A stretch of DNA of 63,997 nt, the filler included, from Asterionella formosa (lineage: Eukaryota): NCBI GenBank assembly GCA_002256025.1. It is 4 parts of 4 records of this genome, joined end to end, with 100 filler letters (N's around TTAATTAATTAA, not from the genome) between each part and the next. Parts side by side here need not be neighbours in the genome. Positions count along the whole stretch, not along the records: positions 48,103 to 63,997 come from NKIB01005219.1; 3 more parts are not named here. One strand, given 5' to 3'. Position 1 is the first letter of the stretch, and every line of letters begins with the position of its first letter. The notes under the pieces are model-generated. The model saw only the letters and a program-made list of their open reading frames with translations. It was not told where the DNA came from and did not search any database. Positions 5,867 to 63,997 of the stretch are shown one piece after another. Both the position numbers and the translations under genes were made by a program.

Positions 5867-7516
5867 TGTGTTGATTTTATGTTGATACTTGGAAGTTTCT
5901 TTGAACGGTGGGTTCGAAACTGCAAGAAAAAAGAAAGCACGGAACAAAATGAGAAGAGAAGGACGATGGCAAATCCAACGTAAAGAATCCTGCAAATACA
6001 CGTTTTGCGGATTTCGTTAGCTCCAGTACAAATACCACTGGGTACCGGTATGCTTGTTATAATTAAAAACGGGTTCTCACATATGTAGTAGAGTACCAGG
6101 GACTCAGTACGCAGGACAGTACAGGTAGCTGCTACTCGGAGTACCTTGTACACGGTACCAGTACTCAGCGAGCGGAGGCGAGGAGAGAACACACTGGCAG
6201 CTGCTACGTAGGGTACTTACTACCGGTATGGAGTTATAACGGTTCGCAACGGTACAGGAAATAAGGTACCGTACCAGTAGGCAAATAAATGGTGGTCTAC
6301 ATAATAGTCCATAAGCAAGAAGGCAAAACTGGCTAAAGGACAAAGAAGGCAGAGGCACTGCCCATGGTGAAGGGTCGACGGAGCTGGACGCGTACATAGG
6401 AGCACTAAATGTGTAAGTACATCCTGGTATCATAAAGGAACAAGCCAAATGACAAGTCAACAAAGGATGGCAATGTCTATAACAGATAGCCAGACTTTGT
6501 ACCGATAGTCTACCACTTCCTTCAAATTTTTGTCAGAATAATTTCCCCCAAGAAGCTAAGAGCAACTTGCTCTCACAGATTAGATAGCTTTTAGCTGGTA
6601 CCATCTAATGCAAGTATTCATGTGCATACTCCATATCGACAAAAGGAAACAGTGGGATCTATGCATTTTGTGTAGCATTGTAGAACCCAGCCAATAGTTC
6701 CTTTGTTCATGCTGTTCTCCTTATATATGTTGCAACTTAATTACTGATATGCGCATTCTATATAGTGGTAGGGCACTATAGACTGCTGCATGCCAGACTA
6801 GCTTCCTGGTTTGCACCAGTAGTTACAGAACCCTACTTAGTAACACCAGGTTGTCTCCTGGTAGCCTAACCAGAGGGGGAAATGCATGTTGGATGACAGC
6901 AATTCAACTCACTTACCAAAGGAATTGCATAACAAGTGCTGCAATACAATCTAGCTAGAGAAATTTTTTTAGCTGAATTCATATCATGAAGCTAAATGAA
7001 TGAAATCAAAAGGTCACAAGAGGATGAAGGAGAGGAGTACTAGTACTTCTTTTCTTTTTGTACTCGGAATAGTCAGCCACATCATACTACATACATACCG
7101 GTAGTGCCGGTAACCTACATTTATAAGGTTCTTTCTGATCTGCTTGTGGCTGGTGCGGATAGAAGCCAGGAATTTTCGTTTCGGTATCCTCATAATTCTA
7201 TACATTTGGCCATACCGGTACATATATTGCGTATCATATTATTAATTGTTATACTTGTATGTGGTATATATACATGTAAATGCTGGCGTAGAACAACTGT
7301 TTGTAATCCTACTGGTACATCGCTTGAAAAAGGAGGCTTGTTACAGTCTGTGTTCTCATTCAGCTAGACTAGCGGTATCCCATTGGGAAGATATTGTTGC
7401 TCTGTCGTCATGTTCATCTTCCTTTCCCTTCCAGGCATTTGCATCTCAAGAAAACCGCCTATAGTCACAATAATTCACTCTCCAGCAACAGAAATTCACA
7501 CATTTGAGAGCCCATC

Positions 7517-48102: not shown

Positions 48103-48917
48103 GGATGAGAATAATAAATGGATCGTTGTTGCTGTTGCTGTTGTTGTTGTTTATTGATGTTGTTCATGGTCCTTCTTGTTGCTTGGTTGTTGTTATATCT
48201 TGAATTCGGAGTTTACTGTATCGTAATAAGTAGAACGACGATGTGGCTGGAAATCAGTAATGGTATCAAATCCTCAGCATTCCCTTGTTCTCAATTTGCT
48301 TCGTCCCATCACCAGGCCTTGATGGGTTTACGGGCAGTACGGTGTTTCCGGTAGCAATACGGAAGTGCCAGTACATCTCATACAGGTACCAGGGTACTAC
48401 TACCAGTAAAAAACTGCATTGACCCACTGTTTTATCCCATTCGTTTGATTAATTGGACTAACACTTATCTCGCATTTCTCTTAAATTTGTTCAGAGGTTT
48501 CGATTTCATAAGGCGTTGGTACATTAGCATCCTGTTCCTAGTTAAATTGAACATATGGTTCAGAAGTTATCAACATTTATACAGACGTGAAATTCAGTTT
48601 CAATGGGTCAATGCAGTATATGAAAATTTTAACATACCTGAAAATATTTTTATATTCATGCTTGAACACAGATTATCCTGTTTGATTTTACCTAAAACCT
48701 TTTTTTGACATCAACACTTAAATATATATTGGATTGACATGAACTCGATTATTTGCTTCTCTTGTTGCACTTCTAATGTTTATTCCCTTCTTTGCTTGCA
48801 GGTACTGTTACTTAGGTACTTAGTAGTACTATAGCATCAACACTCCATGCCTGTCTGGTGTCTGGTTGTACCAGTGTACCAGCATCACTCATGCCACAGC
48901 ATCATTCTCCTCTGCTA

Positions 48918-51143
48918 TCAACATGTTTGGAAATGGCGGCGTCTGATCTCCTCTGTGATATGTATCCAGGTGATAGATTTGGTCTTGTTGTTGGAACTGG
49001 TGTGTGCATCACCTTCACGTTTGAACCAAAGGACCAATGTCTTCAGCTCAGCACAGGTATAATTGTTGGCAATCTTTCCAGTTCCTCTCAATTGCTGAAC
49101 CTTGGCTTCCATTGCAACGAATCTTTCCTTTGCTTTTTCTCCTTTTGGTTCCGGACAATTTGCTGTCGCTGTCTCCAATGAGTCTCCTGCATATATGTGC
49201 AAGTAAAGTTGGACCCAAACTTGTATTCCCAACAGCAAAGTGCAGCCCTGCAGTCATCCTTTTGTGCTGGTCAATTGCGGCTTGTGCTGTTTCCCTCCTT
49301 TTCCTTGTATTCTCATTTGCATTTGTTCCATTTCTTGCATCTTCTCTCGTGATATATTGAGCTCAGCAGGCGTCATGGTGCTACTATGGTTGTTAGCTTC
49401 ATTTCTTTGTATGCCTCCTCCATTTCGGGTCATCTGTATTTCTGGATGAAGCAGGGCATTGTAATTAAGTGGTCCTCAGCCCCGATCCAAAATCGCTTTT
49501 TGATTTGTTCGCTCACTTGCAAAACTCTGGTCCCATGGATGCGAAACAATTCCAACAACATCTGTCTTTTCAATTGCATAAGGCAAATTGTAAAGAGTCT
49601 TCTTAGTAAGAAGATCTCTCTTTGCATGTGTCAAATACATTTTGAAGCATCCGTTTTGTTTGGTGCTGTCTCCGACCTGCCAGTAACTTGTTCCATAGGG
49701 GATGCCAATGCAAACATTCCAAGGGTTGATTGGGGAATTGATATACTCCAAGAATGTAGGGTCGAAGCGACTCCCATGGCGATCAAGAATGAGAAAAGTA
49801 TAAACACCATCACTCCGGTCGAACAAACCGGATAAGTCAATTTGTTGGAGCATTGCAACTAATAGTTCCGCCGTGATTGAGCCAGATTCGGAGCAGCAGC
49901 ACATGGTTGGCATGGTGATTCCATTCAGCATACACACTGGTCCCTGGGGATAGCGTTTACCAATTCCAGAATTCGAAATCAGGTCATCATGCTCTCCATT
50001 CCATTCAGCAAAGGGGTCAAGGCCCTGCACCCACCCTGGTTCCAATTGTTTTGCTGCAAATATTTTCGCACACATCACAGGTTTGCCATCAGATGTTGTA
50101 AATCCTAACACAGTGAAGCAAATGAGCATCCTTTTGGGCACTTCATGTTTACGGCCTTGACTCTGACCCCAAAGTAAGCAACTTCTCCCCTCCGATTTGA
50201 CCATCCTTTGCTTGAGATGTATTGCTACCAACTCCATCAACAAACAGTAACTTCCCTGGATGCTTTAACATGTATTTGGTCTTCATTCCAAATGACTCCT
50301 CTTCAGTGGCGACTATGTGACCTTCTTTATTGAGCCACACCTGCTCGTCTAACTCTTCTGCAATTCCTCCCTTTACCATTTACTTGTATGTCTCGTTATA
50401 AATCAGTTCGAAGTTTGGATATGTACACCAGTCCGCCCGCTTACAATCGAATTTCACTCCCTTCTTTGCCTTAACATCGAATTTCACTCCCTTCTTTGCC
50501 TTGACTTTATGAAAATTCCTTTTCATGAAACCCCTCCAGTAACCAATTCCCAGTCCCTTTGTGTCTTCCACTCCGTCAGCATCTTGGTCTAGTTCGCAAG
50601 TTGAAGTCCTTTACGACATGTGATTGGTGACCTGATTTTCGACAGCTGATCAATTAGCTCAACAATATATGGTTCGACTTCCAACATTGGTGAGGAGGTT
50701 ACTGCTTATTTCAGCCCTCTGGGGTTGAATCGTTTTGTCCTTGATCTAACTGTTTCTTTCTTAATATCAACAGCCGGAGGAATAGCAAGCGCCTCCTTCT
50801 TCCACCTCTCAATTATGCAGGTCAGTGTGTTTTTGCCTGCTCGTTTGTATTTCTTTCTTTCTTCCTCTCTCACAATTATAAATTGTTCTGCTGAGTTCGC
50901 AATGCACTGCTTGGTCAAGTTCGCCATGGCAGTGCTAATGGCAGTTGTAATTCCCTTTGGACGACCTCCAAATGAAGTTGTGCTAGAAGTGACAATTGTA
51001 GAGGGAGCTGTAGTTAAGTCATCCATAGTAGAACTATTTTCTTTGTATTTTTCCAACACTACACCAGATAGAGAGTCTTCATCAATGTAGGAGAAACTCT
51101 CAAATTTATTAGACAGCTTTATATTTATTCCATCCATTGACAA
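48918..51143 (-). mobile_element. Degenerate pogo/Tc1-mariner-like (DDE_1-type) transposase pseudogene
   Basis: Collinear broken ORFs with LLFVDGVGSNT, FTVLGFTTSDGKPVMC, LILDRHGSRF (cf. LLDGHGSH/R) and PYGTSYWQVGDS. Multiple frameshifts and stops. Confidence 0.75.
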
Positions 51144-52894
51144 ATCAGATATTGCACTTGTTTGTGATTCATTATGCTGGAGGCTGTTGGGATTAGTTGC
51201 AGAAGATTCCGCCCTTCTCCATCATATTCACTCATTCTTATCATGCTGTATTGTCACTTCAGTTTTTCGCATCATGTGTTGCTTGAGATCCTTCATTTGA
51301 GGAAGTGGATGCATCATGACAAGGAACATGAAAGGCGTTTGCTCTTGACTTACTACCATCAATTGATTCCGCCCTTCTCTTCTAAGCCGCAAGTATCATT
51401 GTGCTTTATTATCACTTTCGTTTTCCGCGTCATCATCTGTGTCAATCCTTCAATTCAGGAGCAAAGTGTAAGCATGACAAGGAACATGAAAACAAATTTC
51501 AAATGTTTCAGCCATGAATACATGTATATATAAAGATTTGAAAGAAGTTTAATTATACAAAACATCCTGTGTATACTAATATCAATTTTGATTATACATA
51601 ATTCAAATATATACAATGCATGATGAGTTCATAGTTTTCCATGACCTGTTGAGTTTTTCAATTTTTTGTATGTCAATTCTTGTACCTACAAGTCAGTGGC
51701 TGATTTAATTAAGCCCCTTAATAAATGGGAGTAATCGCCAATTTTTCAAATGGTCGAAATCATAAATTTATGTATATAGACAAATTGACCAAAATTCATA
51801 TGGCCTACCGGTAGTACTGTATAATTGCTGGTATTTATTTCTATCATGGAAATACCACAATAGTGCAGCGGAAAACTGAATATGCTCATGTGTTTAGGAT
51901 CATTTGATCATATTTTTAAGATCAATTGATCCTGATTCTTGAAAATAAATGTTGATTGTTCATTTTCTCATCAACGACACCGTTCATCATATGATCAATA
52001 TGTTATGATCAAAGTTATAGGATAAACGAATCTAAATTCATTGATTAAAGATCATAGTTTATACCGGAGTAGTTGCTCATGCATGCAACCCCTTCCTCCC
52101 CCTGTATACAGTACGGAAGTGATAACCCCCAAGCTACCAAATTTTTATGTCTTGTAAGAATTGTCGCAGCATGCATGCATACATGACTCCTACTGGTATA
52201 TACAATGCGGAAATGATGACCACCAGACTACCAATCCTATAGGTCCTGTAGAATTATCGCAACATGGCTGCATATCTAATGAAAGGGCGGGAGGAGTCAT
52301 CCATGCACCTGTATAGTATGAAACATGGAAATGATCAAATGTAGCTAGTCTACAAAAGGAGCAGTGCATCAGCATATATGCCCTGATGTTGTTATTTTAA
52401 TTCCTATGAAATCTCTTGATCTGTTCTGCGCTTTTTCGCCACAATTGTTTTCATTGGCTGTTTCATTGGACAGCATTCGAATTGATTGTGCTTTGAACGA
52501 AGCAATGATCAAAGTCCACCCAATTGCAGAATGGTGAGTCTCACAACTAAGTATCAGCCAGTCGATTAAAATCGGACTGTCTTTTGTGCACCCTTGCTCG
52601 TTTTGTTTGTGTTTGACTTGGCAGCTGTCAGCCAAGAGCAGCCATGGCATGCCACCATCTATTGTCTATACAAGTTTCAAATGCGTTCAGCTATGATAAC
52701 TTTTGATCCCCCCCTAAATACTATCTCACCACGCACCCTTGTCATAGCTTTTTCTTTATCCTATTGCTTCACAGGCCAAGGTCACTCAATGCCTTCATCT
52801 ACAAGGAGTTCAGCCAAGCAGGTCCCCGTTGGCTGGCGTCAAGAAAACCTCAATGGCACCATAAAACAACAATCAACAGATCATGGCGGCTTTT

Positions 52895-54452
52895 CTCCAT
52901 CCTGATACCTCTTTTTATGTTCGTTCTCAGAAAATCAACATTCGCCATGACGGCATTGATCTCGTGTACATCGAATACTATGCTGGATAGAAATCGGCCT
53001 TAAATTGGTGGAGAAAGATGGTTTTGAATTTTCGTTTTTACAGCATTGATCATGATATCAGTCCACCATCACCGAAAATTTACACATCCGGATGCCTCCT
53101 TTGATCAGCATATGTTCGTTCTCAGAATATTAACATTGGCCATGACGACATTGATCTCGTTGACATCGAATTCTATGCTGGAGAGAAATCAGCCTTAAAA
53201 TGGTGAGAGGATGATGGTTTGGAATTTTTGTTGGAACAACACTGGTCATGCAGCAGTCCACAGCAAGCACCGAAATTTTACACACCCTCCTGATGACCAA
53301 TTTGATCAATATATGTTCGTTCTGAGAATATCGATATTCGAAATGACGGCAGTGAACTCGTGTACATCGAATACTTTGCTGAATAAAAATCGGCCTTTAA
53401 TTGGTATAGCAAGATGGTTCGGAATTTTTGTAACCACAGCACTGATGTTCAGTCCATAGCAAGCACCGAAATTTTACACAACATTCTGATGACCAATTCA
53501 ATTAATATATGTCTATTCTAAGAATATCGACATTCGCCATGTCGGCTTTGATATCGTGTATATCGAATGCTATTCTAGATAGAAATCAGCCTTAAAATGG
53601 TGGAGCAAGATGGTTTGGAATTTTTGTTGCCACAGCACTTACAATCAGTCCACAAGCACCGAAAATTTATTTCACATCCTGATGAACAATTTGATCAAAA
53701 TATGTTTGTTCTTAGTATATCGACATTCATTATGACGGCATTGATGTCGTGTTCATCGAATACTATGATTGATATAAACTAGAATTATATTGGTGGAGAA
53801 AGATGGATTGGAACTTTTGTTACTGATGATCTGTCCACAAGCATCCGAAAAATTATACATCCATATGTTCGTTCTGATCATATCAACATTCGACATGACT
53901 TCATTGATTTCGTGTACATCAAATACTATGCTAGATAGAAATTGGCCTTAAATTGGTTGAGAAGGGTTGTTTGGAATTTTTGTTGCTTCTGCACTAATGA
54001 TCAAGCCACAAGTTCCGAAAATTTACAAACCATCCTGATGACCAATTTGATCAATGCATGTTCGTTCTGAGCGAGCATATCGACATTCGAAATATCGGCA
54101 TTGATCTCGTGTTTATCGAATACTATGCTAGATTGAAAGTGACAATGAATTGGTAGAGAAAGATGGATTGGAATATTGGTTGTTAAAGCACTGGTCATCA
54201 GTCCACAGTAGACACCTAAAATTTACACGCCATCCTGATGCCTCCTTTGGACAATATACGTTCGTTCTGAGCATATCGACATTCGACAAGAAGCCTTTGA
54301 TTTCGGGTACATCAAATAATATATTAGATAGAAATCGGCATCAAATTTGTTGAGAAAGAAATGAATTGGAATTTAGGTTGCTACAGCACTGGTTATCAGG
54401 CCACAGCAAGCACCGAAAATTTTACGCATCCTGATGACGAATTTGATCAATA
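52895..54452. repeat. Diverged tandem array, ~197-bp unit, ~8 copies
   Basis: Anchor ATGTTCGTTCT and variants at ~52917, 53112, 53313, 53509, 53702, 53865, 54058 and 54257. Confidence 0.92.
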
Positions 54453-55791
54453 CTGACTAAGCATGGACCGCGCCAGCTTTTTCTGAAGTACAATAAACAC
54501 AAATTTAGTACAAAATTAATGTTGGCGAGGAGGACTGTCCGCGCCAGCTTTCTTAATGAAAAACAGCTGCTGGAATTAAAGGAAGAAAATATCACATTCA
54601 TGGTAAAATGAAATTATTGTTATTGTTGTCGTTTTTGTCGTCTTTTCTGCTATCATGGTTGTGTTCTCATTGTTGGTATCCCTGTCCCTGTTGTTTCTGC
54701 TGTTATTTTTCTTGTTCTTATTCTATTGTTCTTTCCTTGTGGTTACTGTGGCTGTATACCCTTCTCTTCCTTGGTGTTCCTCGCCCTGCGTTTGAACTTG
54801 AACATGCATTGTTTGATATGGAATGTGAAAAGGTCTTGTTTGTTAAAAACCAGCCATCATCTGACTCTGTGAATCTTGTTCTTCCCTTCCAGATAACAAG
54901 GACTCTGTTGTGGGCCGGTTCATCTGGAAGAAACAGGTAGGCTTTTTTTGTTTCTCCTTGTCATCACAGAAAGGATGTATCTGAAAGTTCGAGAAATATA
55001 TGGTAAGCAGTTAACATTTTGGTAAATGGAAACAGGTCTTTTGTAACATTGTTGTTGTTCTTTTTTTGTTGTTCTGCACCGTTGCTCGTTTTGCTTCGAA
55101 TTGTGTTGGGAACAATGTTTGATTGCTGTTGTAGTTTCTTTACCTCCATTTCGTTTTTGCTCTTACTTGTGCCGTTTGGAATTGGAAAAGTGGTCAGTCA
55201 TGAACTTACTCTGCAAACCTTGTTCTTTTTCTACAGAAAATCAATCTGTTTTTGGCAGGACAGGGTTGAACCTTGGGAATAGTGAAATGCGTCGTGCTAT
55301 CCTGTGTCAGGCAGGCTATCAATCATCTTTTATTCGCATTGTTGAAAGGATTCCTCTGGTGCATAGGGGACAAATATATTCATGGTAAGCAAGTGCAATG
55401 TTTTCTTGCCTTCTGCTGATATTGTTTGCTGTTGCTTGTTGTGGGCGGATCTCCTCTCCTATTCTCCTTTGTCTTTGTTCGGAATTGTTAGCGCAGGCAT
55501 TGCTTATCTGTAATGAATTAGAAGAAAGGCTTGATTGTGTGCTTGTTAATTGTTGATCACAAACTTGCTATGCAAATGCTGTTCTATGTCTACAAACAAT
55601 AAATCTGTTGAGCAAGGGATTTGTTGGGAATCAGGCGGCATGGTAAGCACAACGAGAACATTGCCTTTGTAACAATTATTTGTCCATGAACTCACTCTGC
55701 AACCGTTGTTCACTGATTGCAGACAATCAATTTGATGAAGGCTGTGTTGGACATTGGGGAACATGGTACATCTAAGCAGCAAAATACGCCA

Positions 55792-56146
55792 CTTTTCGAA
55801 ATTTCGTCTATGTATGAGTGTTAATTATGCGGTACTTCACATGCATTAATGCCACTCTTCACCTAAAAAAGATTACTTTTATCGGTTTTATGTGAAGTTT
55901 TAACTGTTTCAGGTGAAGTTTTCACAATGAATTTTGAACGCGAGACTGAATTAGTTGATGTTTCAAATAATTCATTTGACTTTTCGAAATTTCGTCTATG
56001 TACGAGTGTTAATTATGTGGTACTTCACATGCATTAATGCCACTCTTCACGTAAAAAAGATTACTTTTCACGGTTTCATGTGAAGTTTTCACAATGAATT
56101 TTGAACGGGAGACTGAATTAGTTGATGTTTCAAATAATTCATTTGA
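55792..56146. repeat. Tandem duplication (~188 + ~167 bp)
   Basis: CTTTTCGAAATTTCGTCTATGTA...GAATTAGTTGATGTTTCAAATAATTCATTTGA twice. Confidence 0.9.
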
Positions 56147-56581
56147 AAGTTCAACTAAGATCCTGCTTATTTTACTTAATGAAATAGTAAGGATATTTGT
56201 GGTGTCTAATGTCATCCATCTGAGATCAAAGTTTTACGGTTGTACACATCACATGGAGAACTCACACTTTCCGGTAAAAAAGCTCCCTCTTCCCAGTTTT
56301 CATGTTATGTAGGTTATTACCGGTACTAGGTAACTGTACTACTAGCCAGTAGTAAGCAACCCAATTTTTTTTAAGTGATTATTATTACTCAAAATCAACA
56401 CTGGTGGTATGGTAGTATTGTTTGCCAAATATGTGCCAAACAAGGTCGATTCCACTTACCAATCCAGAAGCCTAAAGCACATTAGAGACTGATAGTGATA
56501 CTTGCTTGATAAGCAAATTTTAGCTACCGGTTCTTCTTATTTTTCTCTCGCCAACACAGCACTGCAACGACAGCAAATATC

Positions 56582-58066
56582 ATGGATCTGTGTGACAATA
56601 ACGACGAGGAAAAATGTCAATTCTGTGGTAAAGGTCCTTTTAAATCAGTTCATGGTCATCACAGACACAGCCTCTTGAGTGGGCAACAATATATGATTCA
56701 ATCTCAGATTCAAGCATCGCAGACATCATCATTGGTAGCGACTTCGCCAAGAGATGGACGACACCACTCTCAAGACCCCCTTGCAAAATTCCTGAAACAA
56801 TCGCCACCAGCCATTGATTTCGTTCAAACAGTTTGTTTTGATGCTGATGACTATGATAATGGTTTATTCCTTGATAGTTTAGTAGATCATGATGCTGCTG
56901 CTATTAATAGTCCAATCATTCAGAACGGAAAAATAAACGACATTGTAAACCCTACCAACTTCCGATTTTGCCAAGAAGATCCAGGTACAGCCTACACACA
57001 AAAGGATGTTGTAAAAACGGAGCTACTTAGCATTTTACTTGGTAGCAGGTCACCATTATATCTTTATGATGCAATTCTTAAATGGAATGTCTCTTCTCAA
57101 ATGGCAGGAATGACGATTTTAGAAGCTATTCCTCAACGTCGAAACACATATCTGAAATATCTGTTTACCCGGTTTGAGATAGAAGACCAAAAGCCATGTG
57201 TTAAGGCAGTCACCCTCCACTGTGGTAGAAGTGTTGAGGTTGTTTGCTTTGATTTTCTTGTTGCAATCAAGAGATTACTTTCCAATCCCAGATTAATGCA
57301 TCCCAATAATGTTTCATTTGATTTTTCTGATCCCTGCAAGGCTCCACAACCGTCTGATGTCCTTTCAGAATTACACACCAGGAGTTGGTGGATTGACGCT
57401 CACAACTGCCTGTGCATTCAACCCAATGATTTTCTCATCCCTCTCATGTTTTTCATTGATAGAACACATACTGTAGAAAATTCTAAATTCACCATGGAGC
57501 CAGTTTTGTTTCTCTTGGGATTTTCCGTACAACTGTAAGGAACAAAGTCATTGCTTGGCGCCCCCTTGGTCTTATACCAAAACTTGATGATCAGAGTCTT
57601 GCAATGAACAAAAATATGACTGCCGACGATAGTAAGTGCAAGGATTGTCATACAATTTTGTATTGTCGGGAGTTCAAGAGACTAGAAATCTGGTGGCTTC
57701 AAGTATAATTTCAATTTCCATGGCAAACAGCATAGCATGGTGGTTGTAAAGGTACCGGTCGGGTTGGTGCTTGGCGATGCGGAAGGATTGGACAATCAGT
57801 GTGGGAAGATTAAATATTACCTGAAAAATTTTCGTCTCTGTTGGGAATGTGATTGTTCATACAACAGTTTAGATAAACCATCAATCAAATGCTCTCCAGT
57901 AGGGCAAGTGGGTTATGCTGCCCTATTAGGAATGAACAACAAAAAACTAATGGATGCTGTGTCACAACGTTTTATTACACCTTGCTGGTATGCGTTAGAT
58001 TTTGGTGGAGATCCATTGGGAATCAATGGCCATTGCCCTCCTGAAAAGTTACACTCAAATACATGA
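56582..58066 (+). mobile_element. Plavaka-type transposase pseudogene
   Basis: N-terminal C2H2-like CQFCGK...HHRH. Motifs FDFLVAIKRLLSNP, SELHTRSWW, LIPLMFFIDRTH, then after a frameshift LVLGDAEGLDNQCG, CWECDC and PPEKLH, resembling the Plavaka transposase family. Confidence 0.72.
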
Positions 58067-58209
58067 GGGAATGATGCGTTATCTCATTCTTCTGTTCTCG
58101 GTAAAGTTCGCTCGGCACTGTTACCTCTGCTCAGGTGTTGAAAAATAGAACCGCTTTTGATACATTATTCATAAAAGTGTCAAAGATGATACAGCATCAA
58201 AGCGATTGG

Positions 58210-58738
58210 GCTATTTTGACGGCTGATAACTCACACTGATCTTCCTCTACATTCAATTGACATTGCAGCAAACCCTTTCAATTCAGGAGCATTCAGATGA
58301 AATCCAGGATTGAGTATTGTTGCTTTCTGATTCTGTGTTAATGTCATATGAAAAAAGGGCTCCGTAAATCATGAGTTGTTAGTGTGCCTTGGCGTGCTGT
58401 TTGTCATGCTGCCAGCTGATGCTGTATTTCTACTGAATTATTGAATGACAATGCGAATCTTTATGTGCCAGCAGCTACCTCGACTCAAATAAAAGAACTC
58501 TGCAATACAGTTGAATGGTGAGTGTGTTTTTGTTGTGTACCTAAATGCTAGTATGGCTTGTCAGCTCACGCATTGTTGTTGACAACAGGCAGGGACAATG
58601 AGGTACGGAATGAAAGGTGTTCTGGTAAGATTACTGTGCTATTTTGACGGCTATATGAGCAACGCTACAGATAACTCACACTGATCTTCCTCTACATTCA
58701 AATGACATTGCAGCAAATCCTTTCAGTGCAGGAGCATT
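58210..58738. repeat. Dispersed ~85-100-bp direct repeat pair
   Basis: GCTATTTTGACGGCT...GATAACTCACACTGATCTTCCTCTACATTCAA..GACATTGCAGCAAA at ~58210 and ~58638. Confidence 0.85.
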
Positions 58739-58784
58739 TGCATGCCGTTCCGAATGAGCAGGCCTTATTTCATTAATGAAACTC

Positions 58785-60015
58785 TTTAATTTAGTTGAAC
58801 TACCTGCAGTAAAATAGTTGAACAACCTTCAGAAAAATAGTGGAATGGCCTTCAGATAATTAGTTGAACAACCTTGTGATAATTAGTTGAATGAACTCGA
58901 GAAAATTACGTAAACAAATTTTACATATTAAGTGAACTTTATTCTAGAATTATGTGAACGAAATTATAAGGCAATGTGAACTAAATTACAGAATGACGTG
59001 AAGTATTTCAAATAATTACTTGATGTATTTCAAATAATTACTTGATGTATTTCAAATAATTACGTGAAGGTGATGACGTAATATAGTGATGATCAGGAAT
59101 GCATGCATGATAGTACTTTGATCAAATATTTAACGTGATGTATTCAGATAATATATAGATATATTCAACTATGTATTTTGATGTATTCAACTAATTAATG
59201 TGATGCATTCAAAATCAACTAGGCTTATTTATGTGATGGTCACTTCACGTAATATGCGGCTTAGATGTAAGGAGCACAACAGAACCGAAATCATGGCTTC
59301 GCAACTTTTATTTTCTCATCAACTCACTCTGCAAATGTCGCCCTCTTTCTACAACAGACAATCAATCTGAGCAGTGAGAATGAGCAGCCGGCTCATTTGC
59401 TATGAATTGATCTACCGATAGTAGCAACAGGGACTCCTGCAAGTACAAGTAGCCAGGCAATCTTGCAAATCGTTACAGCGTCCAGCTGCAAGAATGAACA
59501 TCCATTGCTTGTCGTATTGGTTCGAGAATCACGTTCTATAAAAAGTATCAATAAAAACTATATAGCAAAGCGATTAATTTGATTGATTTTGCGATTGTAG
59601 CTAGAATTTGATTTAAACGTTGATTGGTTACACATAATTATTTGTTTGACTAGCATATATATTTGTTTAACCTTGAGGTATTAATGTGATCAAAGTAAAG
59701 ATAAAATGGGAGCGAACTAACAGAATTAATGGTTGTCAGAGTGAAGAATATTTGTGAACGGAAATGTTGCGAATTGTAGAGAAAAGCACCGTATTATAGA
59801 GATTATTACTGAACAATGTTGCCAGAAAATATTGTCAGTTGGCCCCAAAAATTATGTGGGTTTCTAAAATAATTATGGAAGTAGTCGAAACTATTTTAGT
59901 TCACTCCGTTCATATATATTGTATGATGCATCATATTTTTATGTGATGTCATACCCTTAAGTTATGTACGTAGCTAAATTCGTCATGTTGGGCCACCCAA
60001 ATAATTAATTTGGTT
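58785..60015. repeat. Degenerate ~22-bp AT-rich subterminal-type repeats (AATTA-GTTG/CGTG/TGTG-A core)
   Basis: Near-perfect GTATTTCAAATAATTACTTGAT x3 at 59003-59068, plus many degenerate copies at 58785-59230 and 59700-60015. Confidence 0.65.
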
Positions 60016-61176
60016 GATCATTTTTGACTAGCGTTTTTTTGTGGCGGCTGTACCAGTAATCGGGGTTGTAGATGTATGAATCACCTCTTTACATGACGTG
60101 TCGATATGCATACTATGTCTGTTTGTCTGACAGTACCTATCTTATCTAATTATTGTTCTTCTATATCAACTTAATCTAATCACTTTTTTTTAACAAACAC
60201 ACCTTCCAATCTCCTTTGGAGTTTTTCAGGTTGGTTATCAGACTCCCCTCCTACCTCATCTCCTTGTTCATCAACTTTTTTGATCTCCCTCGTCCCCTCC
60301 TTCATTGCAGGTTATGAGACCAAGCTATTATCTTGTAATTCTCAAGCTATTCTCTTGTAATTCTCTTGCAATTCAAATAAAATTCAACATTTCAATTCGT
60401 CAACTTGTGCGTACTACTTCGTTGTTATCTTCACTTATTTGCTCTCTATTGGATTGTGATAACTCCTTGACATTGAACTTCAAGTCAATCATCAGCTATT
60501 CTATCTATTGTTGCTGTTGAAGCGATTTATCCAATCATAGAAAGAAAAGTAACATTATGAATTTTCAATCAGCCACCATTTTCTATTTCGTTTCATGGTG
60601 CATCTAAATCACTACTGGTGACACCTCAGACGTACCTTTCTACAAGTGGATACCAGAGTAATTTTCTGTGGACAAGGTTGCTCCACATTCCTTGTTACAC
60701 TTACTTTTCTGTGGACAAGTGTGCTCCACATTTTTTCTCCTTCCAGAAATCTCTAAGACAGCTGGTGTTCTGTGAAACACACGTCGATCTGCACAGCTTC
60801 TTCACATCAACTTATACCACGTCATTTATCGTCCATCTGTGGTATAAAACATGCACGGAAGAAAAAAACCATGAATAGGGTTAGCTGTGTCAGGATGATA
60901 ATTCGCTCCGCGTGATATTTCCACGCCGGTGGAACATGAACAGGAACAGGGTTACCGGTAGTAGTGTTAGTAATGTAACTCGATGGGCCTTCTGTTTGCG
61001 CGTTGTTTCACTATCACCTGCGTGGCCGGCTGCATTAAAATGCATGTGCCCTGCTATAAAATTATCATGTACAAATTTTCGCGTGAAATGGTTGTTTTCT
61101 TGATAAATCACGCGACTACATTCAGCAATGCGAAGACGATCTTTCGTTAAAACTGACACTAGTCACACTTGTTTTC

Positions 61177-61638
61177 TTGATGCATCATGGGATTGTCGTC
61201 AACTTCAACTATATATACTCTATACATTCACATGATTACTCTTTACTTGTTGCCACAGCCCATTGCATGGTTGGCAGTATTGTTCAACAAGTGGTTGTTA
61301 ATTTTACAAGATTTGACGTGTTACAGGCCCATGATGGGTATGTTAACTTATCGAGCTTTGACAACCTAACTGTACAACAAAATGGAGGATACGTCAGGAA
61401 TATTCCCAAAGTTATTCGACACCCAGATCATGACAGTTATACAAAAGTAGATAAAATTGCTCTTGTTTTTCTAGATTCTCCAGTATTTGGGATACCACTC
61501 ATTAAGATCAATGGAAATAATACTAATGTCCCATACGATCATCAATTATTAACTATGATTGGTGCTGGTCGGACCGAATTTGAGGAATCGTTACCTACAC
61601 AACTTATGGAAGTACGCGATTTTTTGGAGGGAGAGTAG
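61177..61638 (+). pseudogene. Trypsin-like (S1) serine protease fragment
   Basis: LVATAHC (cf. TAAHC), VIRHPDH...DKIALVFL (cf. HP.Y...NDIAL) and LTMIGAGRT...LMEV. Truncated before the GDSGG serine motif. Confidence 0.6.
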
Positions 61639-62545
61639 GTTGCGTATTTACTGGGAGAACATCGGAAACCTGTTGACCACTTGCATCTGCAAGACAAACG
61701 CCACCAACACAGCATTCGCTGGATGAAGTACATCCAGCCCAGCGAGCAGTACATGATCGACGAGTGCTTGGGTCTATGAAAAATCCGCTGCAGAAATTAC
61801 AATTCTGGGCATTTTGGTTGCACCATTTGTCATCCCCACAAGTAGCCAAATCCCAAGAACAACAGAACTGGGGAACTTTGCACTGCTTGTACCACTGGTC
61901 CAGACGCGTGCATACAGATTGGCCGCAGCAAGTGTCATTGACAGTCCCTTCTGAACCGTCAGGAACAATGTTACACTGGCCCCAAAGATTTATGCACATA
62001 TTGCGATTTGTGGGAACTATCCACGATCCTGTACACTGCCGACAGTTCTGCGAACTCATGGCACACCAATCAGCGACATTCGAGGAATAGGCACAATCTT
62101 TCAAGTTATAGGAGCAACACGAAGGAGCCACTACTGGAGTCGGATTTGCAGTAGGGAGACTAGTTGGTGCAAGGGTAGGTGTTTTGGATGGAGGAAGGGC
62201 AGGTGTAGTGGTTGGTGAACGGGTAGGTGTAGTGGTTGGTGAACGGGTAGGTGTAGTGGTTGGTGCTAGGGTAGGTGTAGTGGTTGGTGGCAGGTAGGTG
62301 TAGTGGTTGGGAAAACGGATAGGTGTAGTGGTTGGCTGGGTGGTTGGCTCAGTGGTAGGTTTGCTCGTGGGCTGGGCGATAGGAAAAATAGTTGGTTGGC
62401 TCGTCGTAGGCTGGGTGGTAGGGTTGCTAGTTGGCTGGGTGGTAGGTTCGCTTGTGGGTTGAATGATAGGGTTGCTCGTAGGCTGGGTGGTAGGAACAGA
62501 GGTAGGTTCGCTTGTGGGTTGAATGGTAGGGTTTCCATTTTTCAT
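61604..62545 (-). CDS. Pro/Thr-rich mucin-like stalk plus two Cys-rich modules (one CBM1-like), 313 aa, no signal peptide
   Basis: PTxxPTxx repeats. CCSY/W..C...WC....NC..C.G.W/FI modules x2. LWGQC...CC...VC....WYKQC resembles CBM1. Confidence 0.7.
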   Translation of the reverse strand: MKNGNPTIQPTSEPTSVPTTQPTSNPIIQPTSEPTTQPTSNPTTQPTTSQPTIFPIAQPTSKPTTEPTTQPTTTPIRFPNHYTYLPPTTTPTLAPTTTPTRSPTTTPTRSPTTTPALPPSKTPTLAPTSLPTANPTPVVAPSCCSYNLKDCAYSSNVADWCAMSSQNCRQCTGSWIVPTNRNMCINLWGQCNIVPDGSEGTVNDTCCGQSVCTRLDQWYKQCKVPQFCCSWDLATCGDDKWCNQNAQNCNFCSGFFIDPSTRRSCTARWAGCTSSSECCVGGVCLADASGQQVSDVLPVNTQPTLPPKNRVLP

Positions 62546-63688
62546 TTTTTTTCATTTCTCGGTTATATACATAGATATATTTTTTACTCTTTCGTTATTG
62601 TTAGTGCGGAGTGCGAATGCATCGATTTATAAAGAGGAACAAAATGTACGGGTATGTTGTTCCGATTTATCACCTGGTACCCGGTTCCATACATGGATCT
62701 GCCGGTGCCGGAAAATTTCATGGGCCTGAAGATATAAATTTAGTGTCATGTACTACATTTTCTGCCATTCATGGCCTGTCTATGGGGTTACGCGACATAC
62801 TTTATTGAAGCCTGCGATACCTGTAGTTGTGTGATCCCGTGTGTTAAACTGGTCATCCTGGTTTTTAAGTACCGGTACGTACCTACCGGCACCGGTTGTA
62901 GAGTTTGCCACTGACAAATTTATGTGAAGGATCACGCTACGGGGCTCCCAATAACTACCGGGGTATTAGCTGTCGCTGCACGATCCGAAACCTGATTCCA
63001 GTAACGAGAAAAACGTACAAGGTACAGCTTGTAGAAAGGGGAGTACCTAAATGATAGCTTTGAGTATCCTTGTCGATTGCATATATCCACAGACAATCGT
63101 GATGTAGGTATCTGTCCAGTGTACAGTGCAGAATTTGTACGATTGGCGTCTGACAGGATCGAAAAGGTTACCGGTACTTACTGTCAATACATATTAACTT
63201 GTAAGCTCCCTTTCAAAATACTCAGCGGTACTTCGGCCATTAGCCAAAACGAGTATCGGTACATGAGAATGGTGTTCGTAGGATGACTTTTGTGAGTTTC
63301 AACGAATCTCATATGGTATCGCGGCACCGGTACGTATATCCCGGCACGCCAGGATGTCCCGTTTAACACACGGGATCACACAACTACAGGTATCGTAGGT
63401 TTCAATAAATTTATGTCGCGTAACACCATAGACAGGTCATGAATGGCAGAAAATGTAGTACATGACACTAAATTTATATCTTCAGGCCCATGAAATTATC
63501 CGGCATCGGCAGATCCATGTATGGTACCAGGTACCGGGTACCAGGTGATAAATCGGAACAACATACTGGTACATTTTGTTCCTCCTTATAAATCGATGCA
63601 TTCGCACTTCGCACTAACAATAACGAAACAGCAAAAGATATATCGATGCATATAACCGAGAAAGCAAAAAAATGAAAATTGGAAACCC
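62529..63688. repeat. Large inverted repeat: arms 62529-62861 and 63349-63688, 487-bp spacer
   Basis: The arms are highly similar reverse complements. Each includes a TTATAAA box and the first 6 codons ATGAAAA(A/T)TGGAAACCC. Confidence 0.95.
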
Positions 63689-63997
63689 GTTCATCGGCGC
63701 AGCCTTGGCATTGCTCTTGGTTCTCGCTACTGCACAGAACGAGTCGGTAGGTCCCTTATTGCACTTTATGCTTGTTAATCATTAAAGTATTATATCAAAA
63801 CAGGAAATAACATTCTTCTCGTCATTAGGGCCTGCCCGGAGTTGAAAAGCAAGTTGGAGAATGTCTCTACTGTGATGTTGGAGTCATTCATGTCATGATG
63901 GCTGATCGAGTGCCCTCATCAACTTACCGCTGTATAACTGACGAGACCCAGGAAGGTGATGGAGAATCGGAGATGGCATATTCTATGGACCTCCCGA
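63672..63997 (+). CDS. Secreted protein, 5' part only (exon 63672-63746, intron 63747-63828, exon 63829 to window end)
   Basis: Signal peptide MKIGNPFIGAALALLLVLATA. GTAGGT...TTAG intron. Exon 2 (GLPGVEKQVGECLYCDV...YSMDLP) is open to the end of the window. Confidence 0.75.

What the first reader, a model, noticed from the sequence alone, without database searches (positions are those of the whole stretch)
62529..63997. Head-to-head gene pair on an inverted duplicated promoter; the left copy looks like a microhomology-deletion derivative
Seen: two ~335-bp reverse-complement arms each carry a TATA-like box and start codon, launching MKNGNP (left, - strand) and MKIGNP (right, + strand). The right gene continues into a signal peptide, intron and second exon. 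The left gene's similarity stops exactly at AACCC and jumps into the Pro/Thr repeat, whose own units read AGC-AAC-CCT-ATC-ATT-CAA (SNPIIQ) versus the junction GGA-AAC-CCT-ACC-ATT-CAA. Inference: an inverted gene duplication was followed by a deletion between AACCC microhomologies that removed the signal peptide, intron and core domain but kept the frame. The result would be a leaderless protein of stalk plus Cys modules under a bidirectional promoter. The palindrome could also produce hairpin RNA or favour gene conversion.
Basis: partly seen in the sequence, partly recalled or inferred. Interest (0 to 1): 0.7.

Follow-up and report, generated by a model that had tools for sequence, protein, structure and literature searches.

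The report
Decaying chimeric gene beside protease gene
A secreted-protease gene of a freshwater alga sits back-to-back with an inverted copy of its own promoter, but that copy heads a scrambled, decaying patchwork of pieces from two other genes rather than a new working gene, which is ordinary genome rearrangement in a repeat-rich region.

Summary
The inverted arms are real: 62529-62861 and 63349-63688, 91% identical, around a 487-bp spacer. Two more contigs of the genome carry them with their own variants, and contigs of two other studies bridge the left junctions. The right gene is a gametolysin-like (M11) protease with signal peptide and intron. The left 313-codon ORF is a chimera: M11 promoter plus five codons, an M11-type Pro/Thr stalk, Cys modules from a different family (signal peptide-Cys-stalk-G8/CEMIP), cut off against a trypsin fragment. 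No M11 paralogue read here carries those Cys modules. Loss of about 1.7 kb (signal peptide, introns, protease domain) fits, but the shared sequence at the junction is 2 or 5 bases depending on the parent assumed. The left copy is dying: of three copies, one lost ATG, TATA and frame, one lost TATA and ATG by a second deletion. The arms show no arm-to-arm conversion. The wider point is that stalk-coding repeats swap domains in this genome: the same leader and intron also splice directly onto stalk-LRR genes. A known kind of process; low to moderate interest.

The parts
62529..62861 (-). Left arm: inverted copy of the M11 gene's proximal promoter, 5' UTR and first 17 coding bases
   Evidence: 91% to right arm; 72% to promoter of paralogue C4978 over 157 bases
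62862..63348 (.). Single-copy spacer, 487 bp; its right part is native M11 upstream DNA
   Evidence: 68-81% matches to upstream DNA of paralogues C13769, C14177, C3540, C12582
63349..63688 (+). Right arm: promoter, 5' UTR and start of the M11-like gene
62626..62633 (-). TATA-like box of left arm (mutated in C7675, deleted in C2941)
   Evidence: sequence
63586..63592 (+). TATA-like box of right arm
   Evidence: sequence
63672..63746 (+). Exon 1 of right gene: predicted signal peptide; same leader also heads stalk-LRR genes elsewhere in the genome
63747..63828 (+). Intron 1 (82 nt, GT-AG, phase 0)
   Evidence: sequence; spliced joint in RNA run X15
63829..63997 (+). Start of exon 2 of a gametolysin-like (M11) metalloprotease, cut by contig end
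   Evidence: 86-89% to paralogues whose later exons and homologues hit PF05548 above cut-off
61604..62545 (-). Left ORF, 313 codons, chimeric, no signal peptide, probable pseudogene
62529..62533 (-). 5' junction promoter/stalk; overlap 2 bases (CC) against C14177/C13769 stalks, 5 bases (AACCC) against C1322-type units
   Evidence: bridged by an X15 contig covering 62374-62643
62331..62528 (-). M11-type (type A) Pro/Thr stalk
   Evidence: 74-77% to stalks of M11 genes C14177, C13769, C1322; PF04886 weak
62120..62330 (-). G8-family-type (type B, shortened) Pro/Thr stalk, with a compensating +1/-1 indel pair near 62295-62315
61618..62119 (-). Four Cys-rich modules from the signal peptide-Cys-stalk-G8/CEMIP gene family; last conserved Cys lost (Ser)
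   Evidence: 91-94% DNA identity to C6447, C2406
61214..61615 (+). Fragment of a trypsin-like gene, abutting and truncating the Cys region
   Evidence: 95% to C2225, which holds more of the gene; PF00089
58223..61217 (.). Nest of four dispersed repeats (58223-59269, 59267-60076, 60114-60843, 60842-61217) flanking the mosaic

Best explanation
A decaying by-product of repeat- and microhomology-driven rearrangement. Likely order: (1) an M11 protease gene and a Cys-module/G8-CEMIP gene recombined in their Pro/Thr stalk-coding repeats, giving M11-stalk-Cys (inferred from two contigs that each show half of it); (2) its 3' end was cut against a trypsin gene (junction shown); (3) the gene was duplicated head-to-head around a 487-bp spacer, probably by fold-back at a break upstream of the promoter (geometry shown, mechanism inferred); (4) the left copy lost about 1.7 kb from codon 5 to the first stalk unit, removing signal peptide, introns and protease domain (junction shown, parent inferred); (5) left copies are decaying without arm-to-arm repair (shown). 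The open frame in this copy is most likely a leftover: its disulfide-type modules and stalk would have no route to the secretory pathway (established knowledge of secreted proteins).
For: Same inverted structure in C5219, C7675, C2941 with about 6.3% spacer divergence. Cys modules: 11 matches on 10 contigs; none on the 8 M11 paralogue contigs read; parent genes hit G8 and CEMIP above cut-off; the only longer database homologue found is a G8/CEMIP protein (1 of 48 candidates). C2406 = type A stalk, type B stalk, Cys, start of G8 region, and is the closest intact-looking module. C5039-C3391-C1322 join by exact 127-base overlaps; C3391 is 96% to the right exon 2 and identical to the last 49 bases of C7675; its M11 gene ends in a type A/B stalk stopping at the motif that precedes the Cys modules in the left ORF. 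Left ORF resumes at the first stalk unit of C14177/C13769. C7675 left copy: ATG lost, TATA changed, frameshift before the Cys modules, two conserved Trp lost; C2941: second deletion with 3 shared bases removes TATA and ATG. Window vs C7675 Cys region 15 nonsynonymous / 5 synonymous changes (ratio 0.77) against 0.28-0.37 among G8-linked copies. Two different trypsin/Cys junctions exist.
Against: The right gene cannot be read to its end; C3391-C1322 is one possibly collapsed assembly path and has no Cys modules. No single contig shows M11-stalk-Cys. The left stalk is only 74-77% identical to any M11 stalk found, lower than the arms. The dN/dS shift is not significant (Fisher p 0.08 and 0.18). 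The window copy keeps ATG, TATA and an open frame through a compensating indel pair, and the junction is bridged by a contig (depth 6) from a poly(A) RNA run of another study. No inverted homology above chance inside the spacer (47 of 300 shuffles reach the score).
Confidence: 0.68

Rival explanations
1. Promoter capture only: about 335 bp of M11 promoter plus five codons were copied (template switch) in inverted orientation onto a pre-existing stalk-Cys fragment; no whole gene was duplicated and nothing was deleted.
For: Arm identity 91-94% but stalk identity only 74-77% to known M11 stalks; other junctions at this locus look like templated pieces, e.g. a 100-base piece of 58719-58818 in C1322.
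Against: The left ORF resumes exactly at the first stalk unit behind the protease domain; an M11 gene with the same shortened type B stalk end lies beside the same repeat mosaic in C1322/C5329.
Confidence: 0.19
2. One reading: a new, selected leaderless stalk-Cys protein co-regulated with the protease, possibly with hairpin RNA or conversion between arms.
For: Open 313-codon frame with ATG and TATA in this copy; compensating indels; junction in a contig from an RNA library of another study; arms could pair if read through (-677 kcal/mol).
Against: 2 of 3 copies lack the start; conserved Cys lost in both full copies; 3' end is a truncation; left arms share 7 fixed differences from right arms and within-contig arm divergence (6.3%, 8.8%) is not below between-contig spacer divergence (6.3%); outward transcripts from the two arms would be alike, not complementary (sequence).
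Confidence: 0.07
3. The arms are terminal inverted repeats of a transposon, or the mosaic was gathered by a Helitron or Pack-type element.
For: Neighbourhood is packed with dispersed repeats and transposase remnants; gene-fragment mosaics occur in several contigs.
Against: Arms match only these three contigs and an M11 paralogue promoter, include coding bases, and have no matching flanks that could be a target duplication (sequence); junctions differ between copies.
Confidence: 0.04
4. Assembly artefact.
For: Fragmented short-read assembly (15,436 contigs); contig ends inside the right gene.
Against: Arms differ at 21 of 332 aligned sites; three contigs with private variants; X11 contig 62820-63132 bridges arm and spacer with 42 arm letters, X15 contig 62374-62643 bridges arm and stalk.
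Confidence: 0.02

Closest known systems
Gametolysin peptidase M11 family (Pfam PF05548)
   Same: Right gene's paralogues and homologues hit PF05548 above cut-off and show the HExxHxxGxxH zinc motif; signal peptide and Pro/Thr stalk.
   Different: Only 81 codons of the right gene lie in the window; the left ORF has none of the protease domain.
G8 / CEMIP beta-helix proteins (PF10162, PF24606)
   Same: The left ORF's Cys modules are 91-95% identical in protein to the N-terminal modules of such genes in this genome.
   Different: Left ORF lacks signal peptide, G8 and beta-helix; it is a fragment, not a member.
Fold-back inverted duplications with a single-copy spacer (PMC3907307; abstract and section 8 read)
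   Same: Head-to-head copies around an unduplicated spacer.
   Different: Spacer 487 bp (766-70,466 bp in that human set); inverted microhomology at the spacer edge and a terminal deletion could not be shown; left copy further deleted.
Chimeric yeast FLO genes made by ectopic recombination in tandem-repeat-bearing genes (PMC4293462; passages read, citing Christiaens 2012 and Verstrepen 2005, not read)
   Same: Repeat-rich stalk genes for secreted or surface proteins exchange parts.
   Different: Here exchange appears to be between unrelated families (M11, G8/CEMIP, LRR, possibly GH18-chitin-binding) in an alga, and this product is decaying.

Membership tests
M11 gametolysin-like peptidase (right gene) | PF05548 hit above curated cut-off | tested here: inconclusive
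   Window exon 2 piece (56 aa) has no hit; paralogue C13769 exon 24.2 bits vs cut-off 21; homologues P0004, P0005 54 and 52 bits. Right gene is 86-89% to these paralogues in DNA.
M11 gametolysin-like peptidase (right gene) | HExxHxxGxxH zinc-binding motif | not testable with these tools
   Beyond the contig end; present in homologues and second half seen in paralogues and C3391.
M11 gametolysin-like peptidase (right gene) | N-terminal signal peptide | tested here: met
   Hydrophobic core 2.97; no dedicated predictor was run.
G8/CEMIP protein (left ORF) | G8 domain and beta-helix | tested here: not met
   Only a weak PT hit for the left ORF; ORF ends at the trypsin junction.
CBM1 cellulose-binding module (second Cys module; resemblance recalled) | PF00734 above cut-off | tested here: not met
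   7.2 bits vs 20.6, E 6.5; no PDB sequence match at E 10.
Fold-back inverted duplication | Unduplicated spacer between inverted copies | tested here: met
   487, 474 and 486 bp in three contigs.
Fold-back inverted duplication | Inverted microhomology at the spacer edge in the ancestral sequence | tested here: inconclusive
   No unduplicated allele found; a 26-base imperfect match just inside the spacer is not above shuffles.
Fold-back inverted duplication | Adjacent terminal loss or dicentric intermediate | not testable with these tools
   Contigs too short.
Palindrome kept by arm-to-arm gene conversion | Arms of one copy closer to each other than to arms of other copies | tested here: not met
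   L7675 differs from R5219 at 23 sites and from its own right arm at 29; 7 fixed left/right differences.
Bidirectional promoter | One shared promoter firing both ways | tested here: not met
   Two separate outward copies, each with its own TATA-like box, ATGs 1,127 bases apart; activity of the left copy not tested.
Hairpin-RNA / siRNA locus | Read-through transcript across both arms and small RNAs | not testable with these tools
   Pairing potential only; runs offered were contigs, no small RNA.
MITE / TIR element | Dispersed copies, target-site duplication | tested here: not met
   7 matches on 4 contigs, all M11 promoters; flanks unlike.

The most novel reading that the evidence does not exclude
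Pro/Thr stalk-coding DNA works as a recombination hub for the secreted proteins of this alga: one promoter-leader-intron module and one stalk type are swapped among M11 proteases, LRR proteins, G8/CEMIP Cys modules and others; an earlier loss of the M11 domain that spared the signal peptide (intron acceptor landing in the stalk) founded a family of secreted stalk-LRR genes, and this locus is a failed repeat of the same event caught in several stages. Telomere-repeat tracts at four such loci suggest that breaks there are often healed by telomerase, with Asn-Pro-Thr codons (AACCCT) resembling the telomere unit.
Probability: 0.3. Interest if true: 0.55.

Novelty: new member of a known kind. Interest (0 to 1): 0.24.

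Why it matters
As a single locus it is ordinary: a pseudogenising chimera next to a protease gene. Its value is as a snapshot of how secreted-protein genes are reshuffled in an alga with several stages visible at once. If stalk-mediated swapping between unrelated families is confirmed with long reads, it would give a concrete mechanism for the fast turnover of diatom surface and secreted proteins; my searches listed no paper whose title or abstract start describes it, which is a limited check.

Tried and rejected
Extension of the right gene: C5219 ends inside exon 2; no contig continues it exactly (C3391 differs at 5 of 127 bases). Upstream of C2406: no exact continuation found, so an intact M11-G8 fusion is unproven. 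Database search for M11 fused to G8: 13 hits among 554 candidates, none with G8 (weak evidence). Residual inverted similarity inside the spacer: not above shuffles. Trypsin or M11 genes near G8 genes C6447, C5446, C11154, C175: none in the stretches fetched. CBM1 and PDB identity of Cys modules: not met; sub-threshold knottin-type Pfam hits ignored. RNA cover (contigs only, 4 of 24 listed runs laid): X15 and X19 have no contig over most of the spacer, X19 none over the left promoter, RNA contigs at 61665 show the Cys allele and loose ends at 61615 and 61624 run on into the parent trypsin and G8 genes; absence in contigs proves nothing and is not counted as evidence. X19 is from the same sample as the best DNA holder, so not independent. 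The X15 junction contig seems to continue about 50 letters further up the arm, past the TATA-like box, so it may be DNA carry-over; contigs cannot give strand, start or level. Earlier-findings look-ups near the locus and by sequence returned nothing. Paper search with four terms on chimeric adhesins returned 0. No structure prediction was run. No supplementary files were opened.

Full report
Observation. Each has a TATA-like box and an ATG (62545 on -, 63672 on +). The window is a string of separate contigs of a 68-Mb eukaryotic assembly; the finding lies at the end of C5219 (window 48103-63997), which stops inside the right gene. Gene content and earlier notes on this genome point to a freshwater diatom (inference; notes are unchecked).

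Not an artefact. The same structure is in C7675 and C2941, whose spacers differ from the window's and from each other by about 6.3%. C7675 also shares the first 383 bases and 57914-63919 with C5219, so it is probably a divergent allele with other insertions; three equidistant copies mean at least one paralogue. In other studies' data a contig of run X11 spans 62820-63132 (42 letters in the left arm) and a contig of run X15 spans 62374-62643, across the promoter/stalk junction (4 of 24 listed runs laid).

Right gene. Exon 1 (63672-63746) is a hydrophobic leader, intron 63747-63828 is GT-AG and is skipped in an RNA contig, exon 2 is 86-89% identical to four paralogues with the same leader. Paralogues and database homologues are gametolysin-like M11 metalloproteases (PF05548 above cut-off, zinc motif). 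Of 8 paralogues read downstream, 7 end in a bare Pro/Thr stalk and one is frameshifted in the stalk; none of their contigs matches the Cys modules.

Left ORF. It is a patchwork. After five codons it resumes at the first stalk unit that follows the protease domain in paralogues C14177 and C13769; about 1,705 bases would be missing. The Cys modules (61618-62119) are 91-94% identical in DNA to the N-terminal modules of a different family, signal peptide-Cys-stalk-G8-CEMIP beta-helix (C6447, 1,077-codon frame); the only longer database homologue is of that family. The ORF ends where this piece abuts a trypsin gene fragment (61214-61615, 95% to C2225); C14087 and C1098 have a different trypsin/Cys junction that keeps more trypsin and less Cys region, so the two are independent. 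Left of that lie four dispersed repeats.

Was there an M11-stalk-Cys parent? Two contigs each show half. C2406 has the M11-type stalk, the G8-type stalk, the Cys modules and the start of the G8 region, and its module is the closest intact-looking one to the window's. C5039, C3391 and C1322 join by exact 127-base overlaps; C3391 is 96% identical to the window's exon 2 and identical to the last 49 bases of C7675. This M11 gene has an M11-type then shortened G8-type stalk that stops at the motif preceding the Cys modules in the left ORF, followed by two telomere-like units and rearranged pieces of window 58719-58818, 60903-61230 and 59442-59837. So an M11 gene with this stalk lies beside the same repeat mosaic, either as the right gene's tail in a longer, eroded palindrome or as an undeleted version of the left gene. 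Against this: no contig shows the whole fusion, the path may be collapsed, and the left stalk is only 74-77% identical to any M11 stalk found, which keeps promoter-only capture alive.

Function of the left copy. In C7675 the ATG is lost, the TATA-like box changed, the frame shifts before the Cys modules and two conserved Trp are replaced; in C2941 a second deletion with three shared bases removes TATA and ATG. Both full copies lost the last conserved Cys. Window against C7675 gives 15 nonsynonymous and 5 synonymous changes (ratio 0.77) against 0.28-0.37 among G8-linked copies; not significant (p 0.08-0.18). For function: the window copy keeps ATG, TATA and frame through a +1/-1 indel pair, and the X15 junction contig (depth 6) is from a poly(A) library, though contigs give no strand or level and DNA may be in it. 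A protein with 23 Cys and a Pro/Thr stalk but no leader would not reach the compartment where such modules fold (established knowledge).

Conversion and hairpin. Left arms share 7 fixed differences from right arms; within-contig arm divergence (6.3%, 8.8%) is not below between-contig spacer divergence, and each left arm is as close or closer to R5219 as to its own right arm. No concerted evolution. The arms could pair strongly if read through, but both promoters face outward and their transcripts would share, not complement, the same 5' sequence.

Wider context. The M11 leader and intron 1 also head non-M11 genes in which the intron acceptor falls directly on an M11-type stalk: 10 such leader-stalk matches on 9 contigs plus one decayed leader. 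Of 6 of their long frames scanned, 5 are LRR proteins and one has an unnamed Cys-rich region; a GH18-chitin-binding gene carries the same stalk type. More distant M11 genes have diverged versions of the leader, so M11 is the likelier donor (inference, no tree built). Loss of the protease domain with the stalk kept has thus probably happened at least twice: once sparing the signal peptide, once, here, removing it. TTAGGG tracts lie at C13024, C12576, C3711 and, short, C1322/C5329; the three-unit pattern occurs 312 times in the genome, at contig ends and inside, so enrichment is untested.

Comparison. The geometry fits fold-back inverted duplications with a single-copy spacer (PMC3907307, abstract and section 8 read), though the diagnostic inverted microhomology could not be shown. 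Chimeras between repeat-bearing surface-protein genes are known from yeast FLO genes (PMC4293462, passages read). Frequent mitotic recombination and rearrangement in diatoms is reported (10.1101/2020.11.08.373134, abstract read). Telomeric insertions at repaired breaks are known in mammals (PMC2246262, PMC8537989, search listing only). Searches on gametolysin, G8 and domain shuffling in diatoms listed nothing on stalk-mediated swapping; only listings were seen.

Verdict. Observation confirmed; interpretation partly right. A real inverted duplication with a decaying chimeric left copy: new member of a known kind, interest 0.24.

Noticed in passing
G000 contigs C3330 (L131), C13024 (L132), C12993 (L157), C9463 (L158), C3711 (L159), C4666 (L161), C12576 (L156), C13047 (L152), C4014 (L154); leader equivalent to window 63658-63820: The M11 leader exon and intron 1 are reused by a family of secreted stalk-LRR and stalk-Cys genes, the intron acceptor falling directly on the stalk.
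   Followed up: partly
L042:903-925, L142 end, L132:6712-6760, L156 behind the stalk, L159 contig end: Telomere-repeat tracts (2 to 9 units) at rearrangement junctions or truncations of stalk-bearing genes; the stalk's Asn-Pro codons resemble the telomere unit.
   Followed up: partly
C1322 (L042), C5329 (L142), C9571 (L124) against window 57787-61230: An inversion of 58719-61230 flanked by a duplicated 100-base piece appears in two arrangements, as if flipped between short inverted repeats or forming a tail-to-tail palindrome.
   Followed up: partly
L031 (C2406) 3-1445: 481-codon open frame with M11-type stalk, Cys modules and start of the G8 region: possible intact M11-G8 or leader-stalk-G8 fusion gene; 5' end not found.
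   Followed up: partly
L131:4169-5788: Stalk-linked Cys-rich region with a CCNHDFC motif, no Pfam hit; resemblance to a phospholipase A2-type motif is recalled, not tested.
   Followed up: no
window 59267-60076 and 58223-59269: An 810-bp repeat with at least 28 copies at 90-93% identity and sharp ends, next to a 1,050-bp repeat with internal 22- and 23-bp tandem arrays; probably non-autonomous transposons.
   Followed up: no
window 56582-57538 and 49479-51221: Transposase-like remnants: weak Plavaka hit below cut-off; the second looks like a DDE transposase by eye, no Pfam hit.
   Followed up: no
L016 (C5039):822, L008 (C4978) near 7240, L050 (C12895):2304: Three more M11 copies broken in or near intron 1 and exon 2 and joined to unrelated DNA.
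   Followed up: no
window 63290-63360 and paralogue promoters: Motif AGGATGAC recurs in M11 promoters, including at the arm boundary; candidate regulatory site.
   Followed up: no
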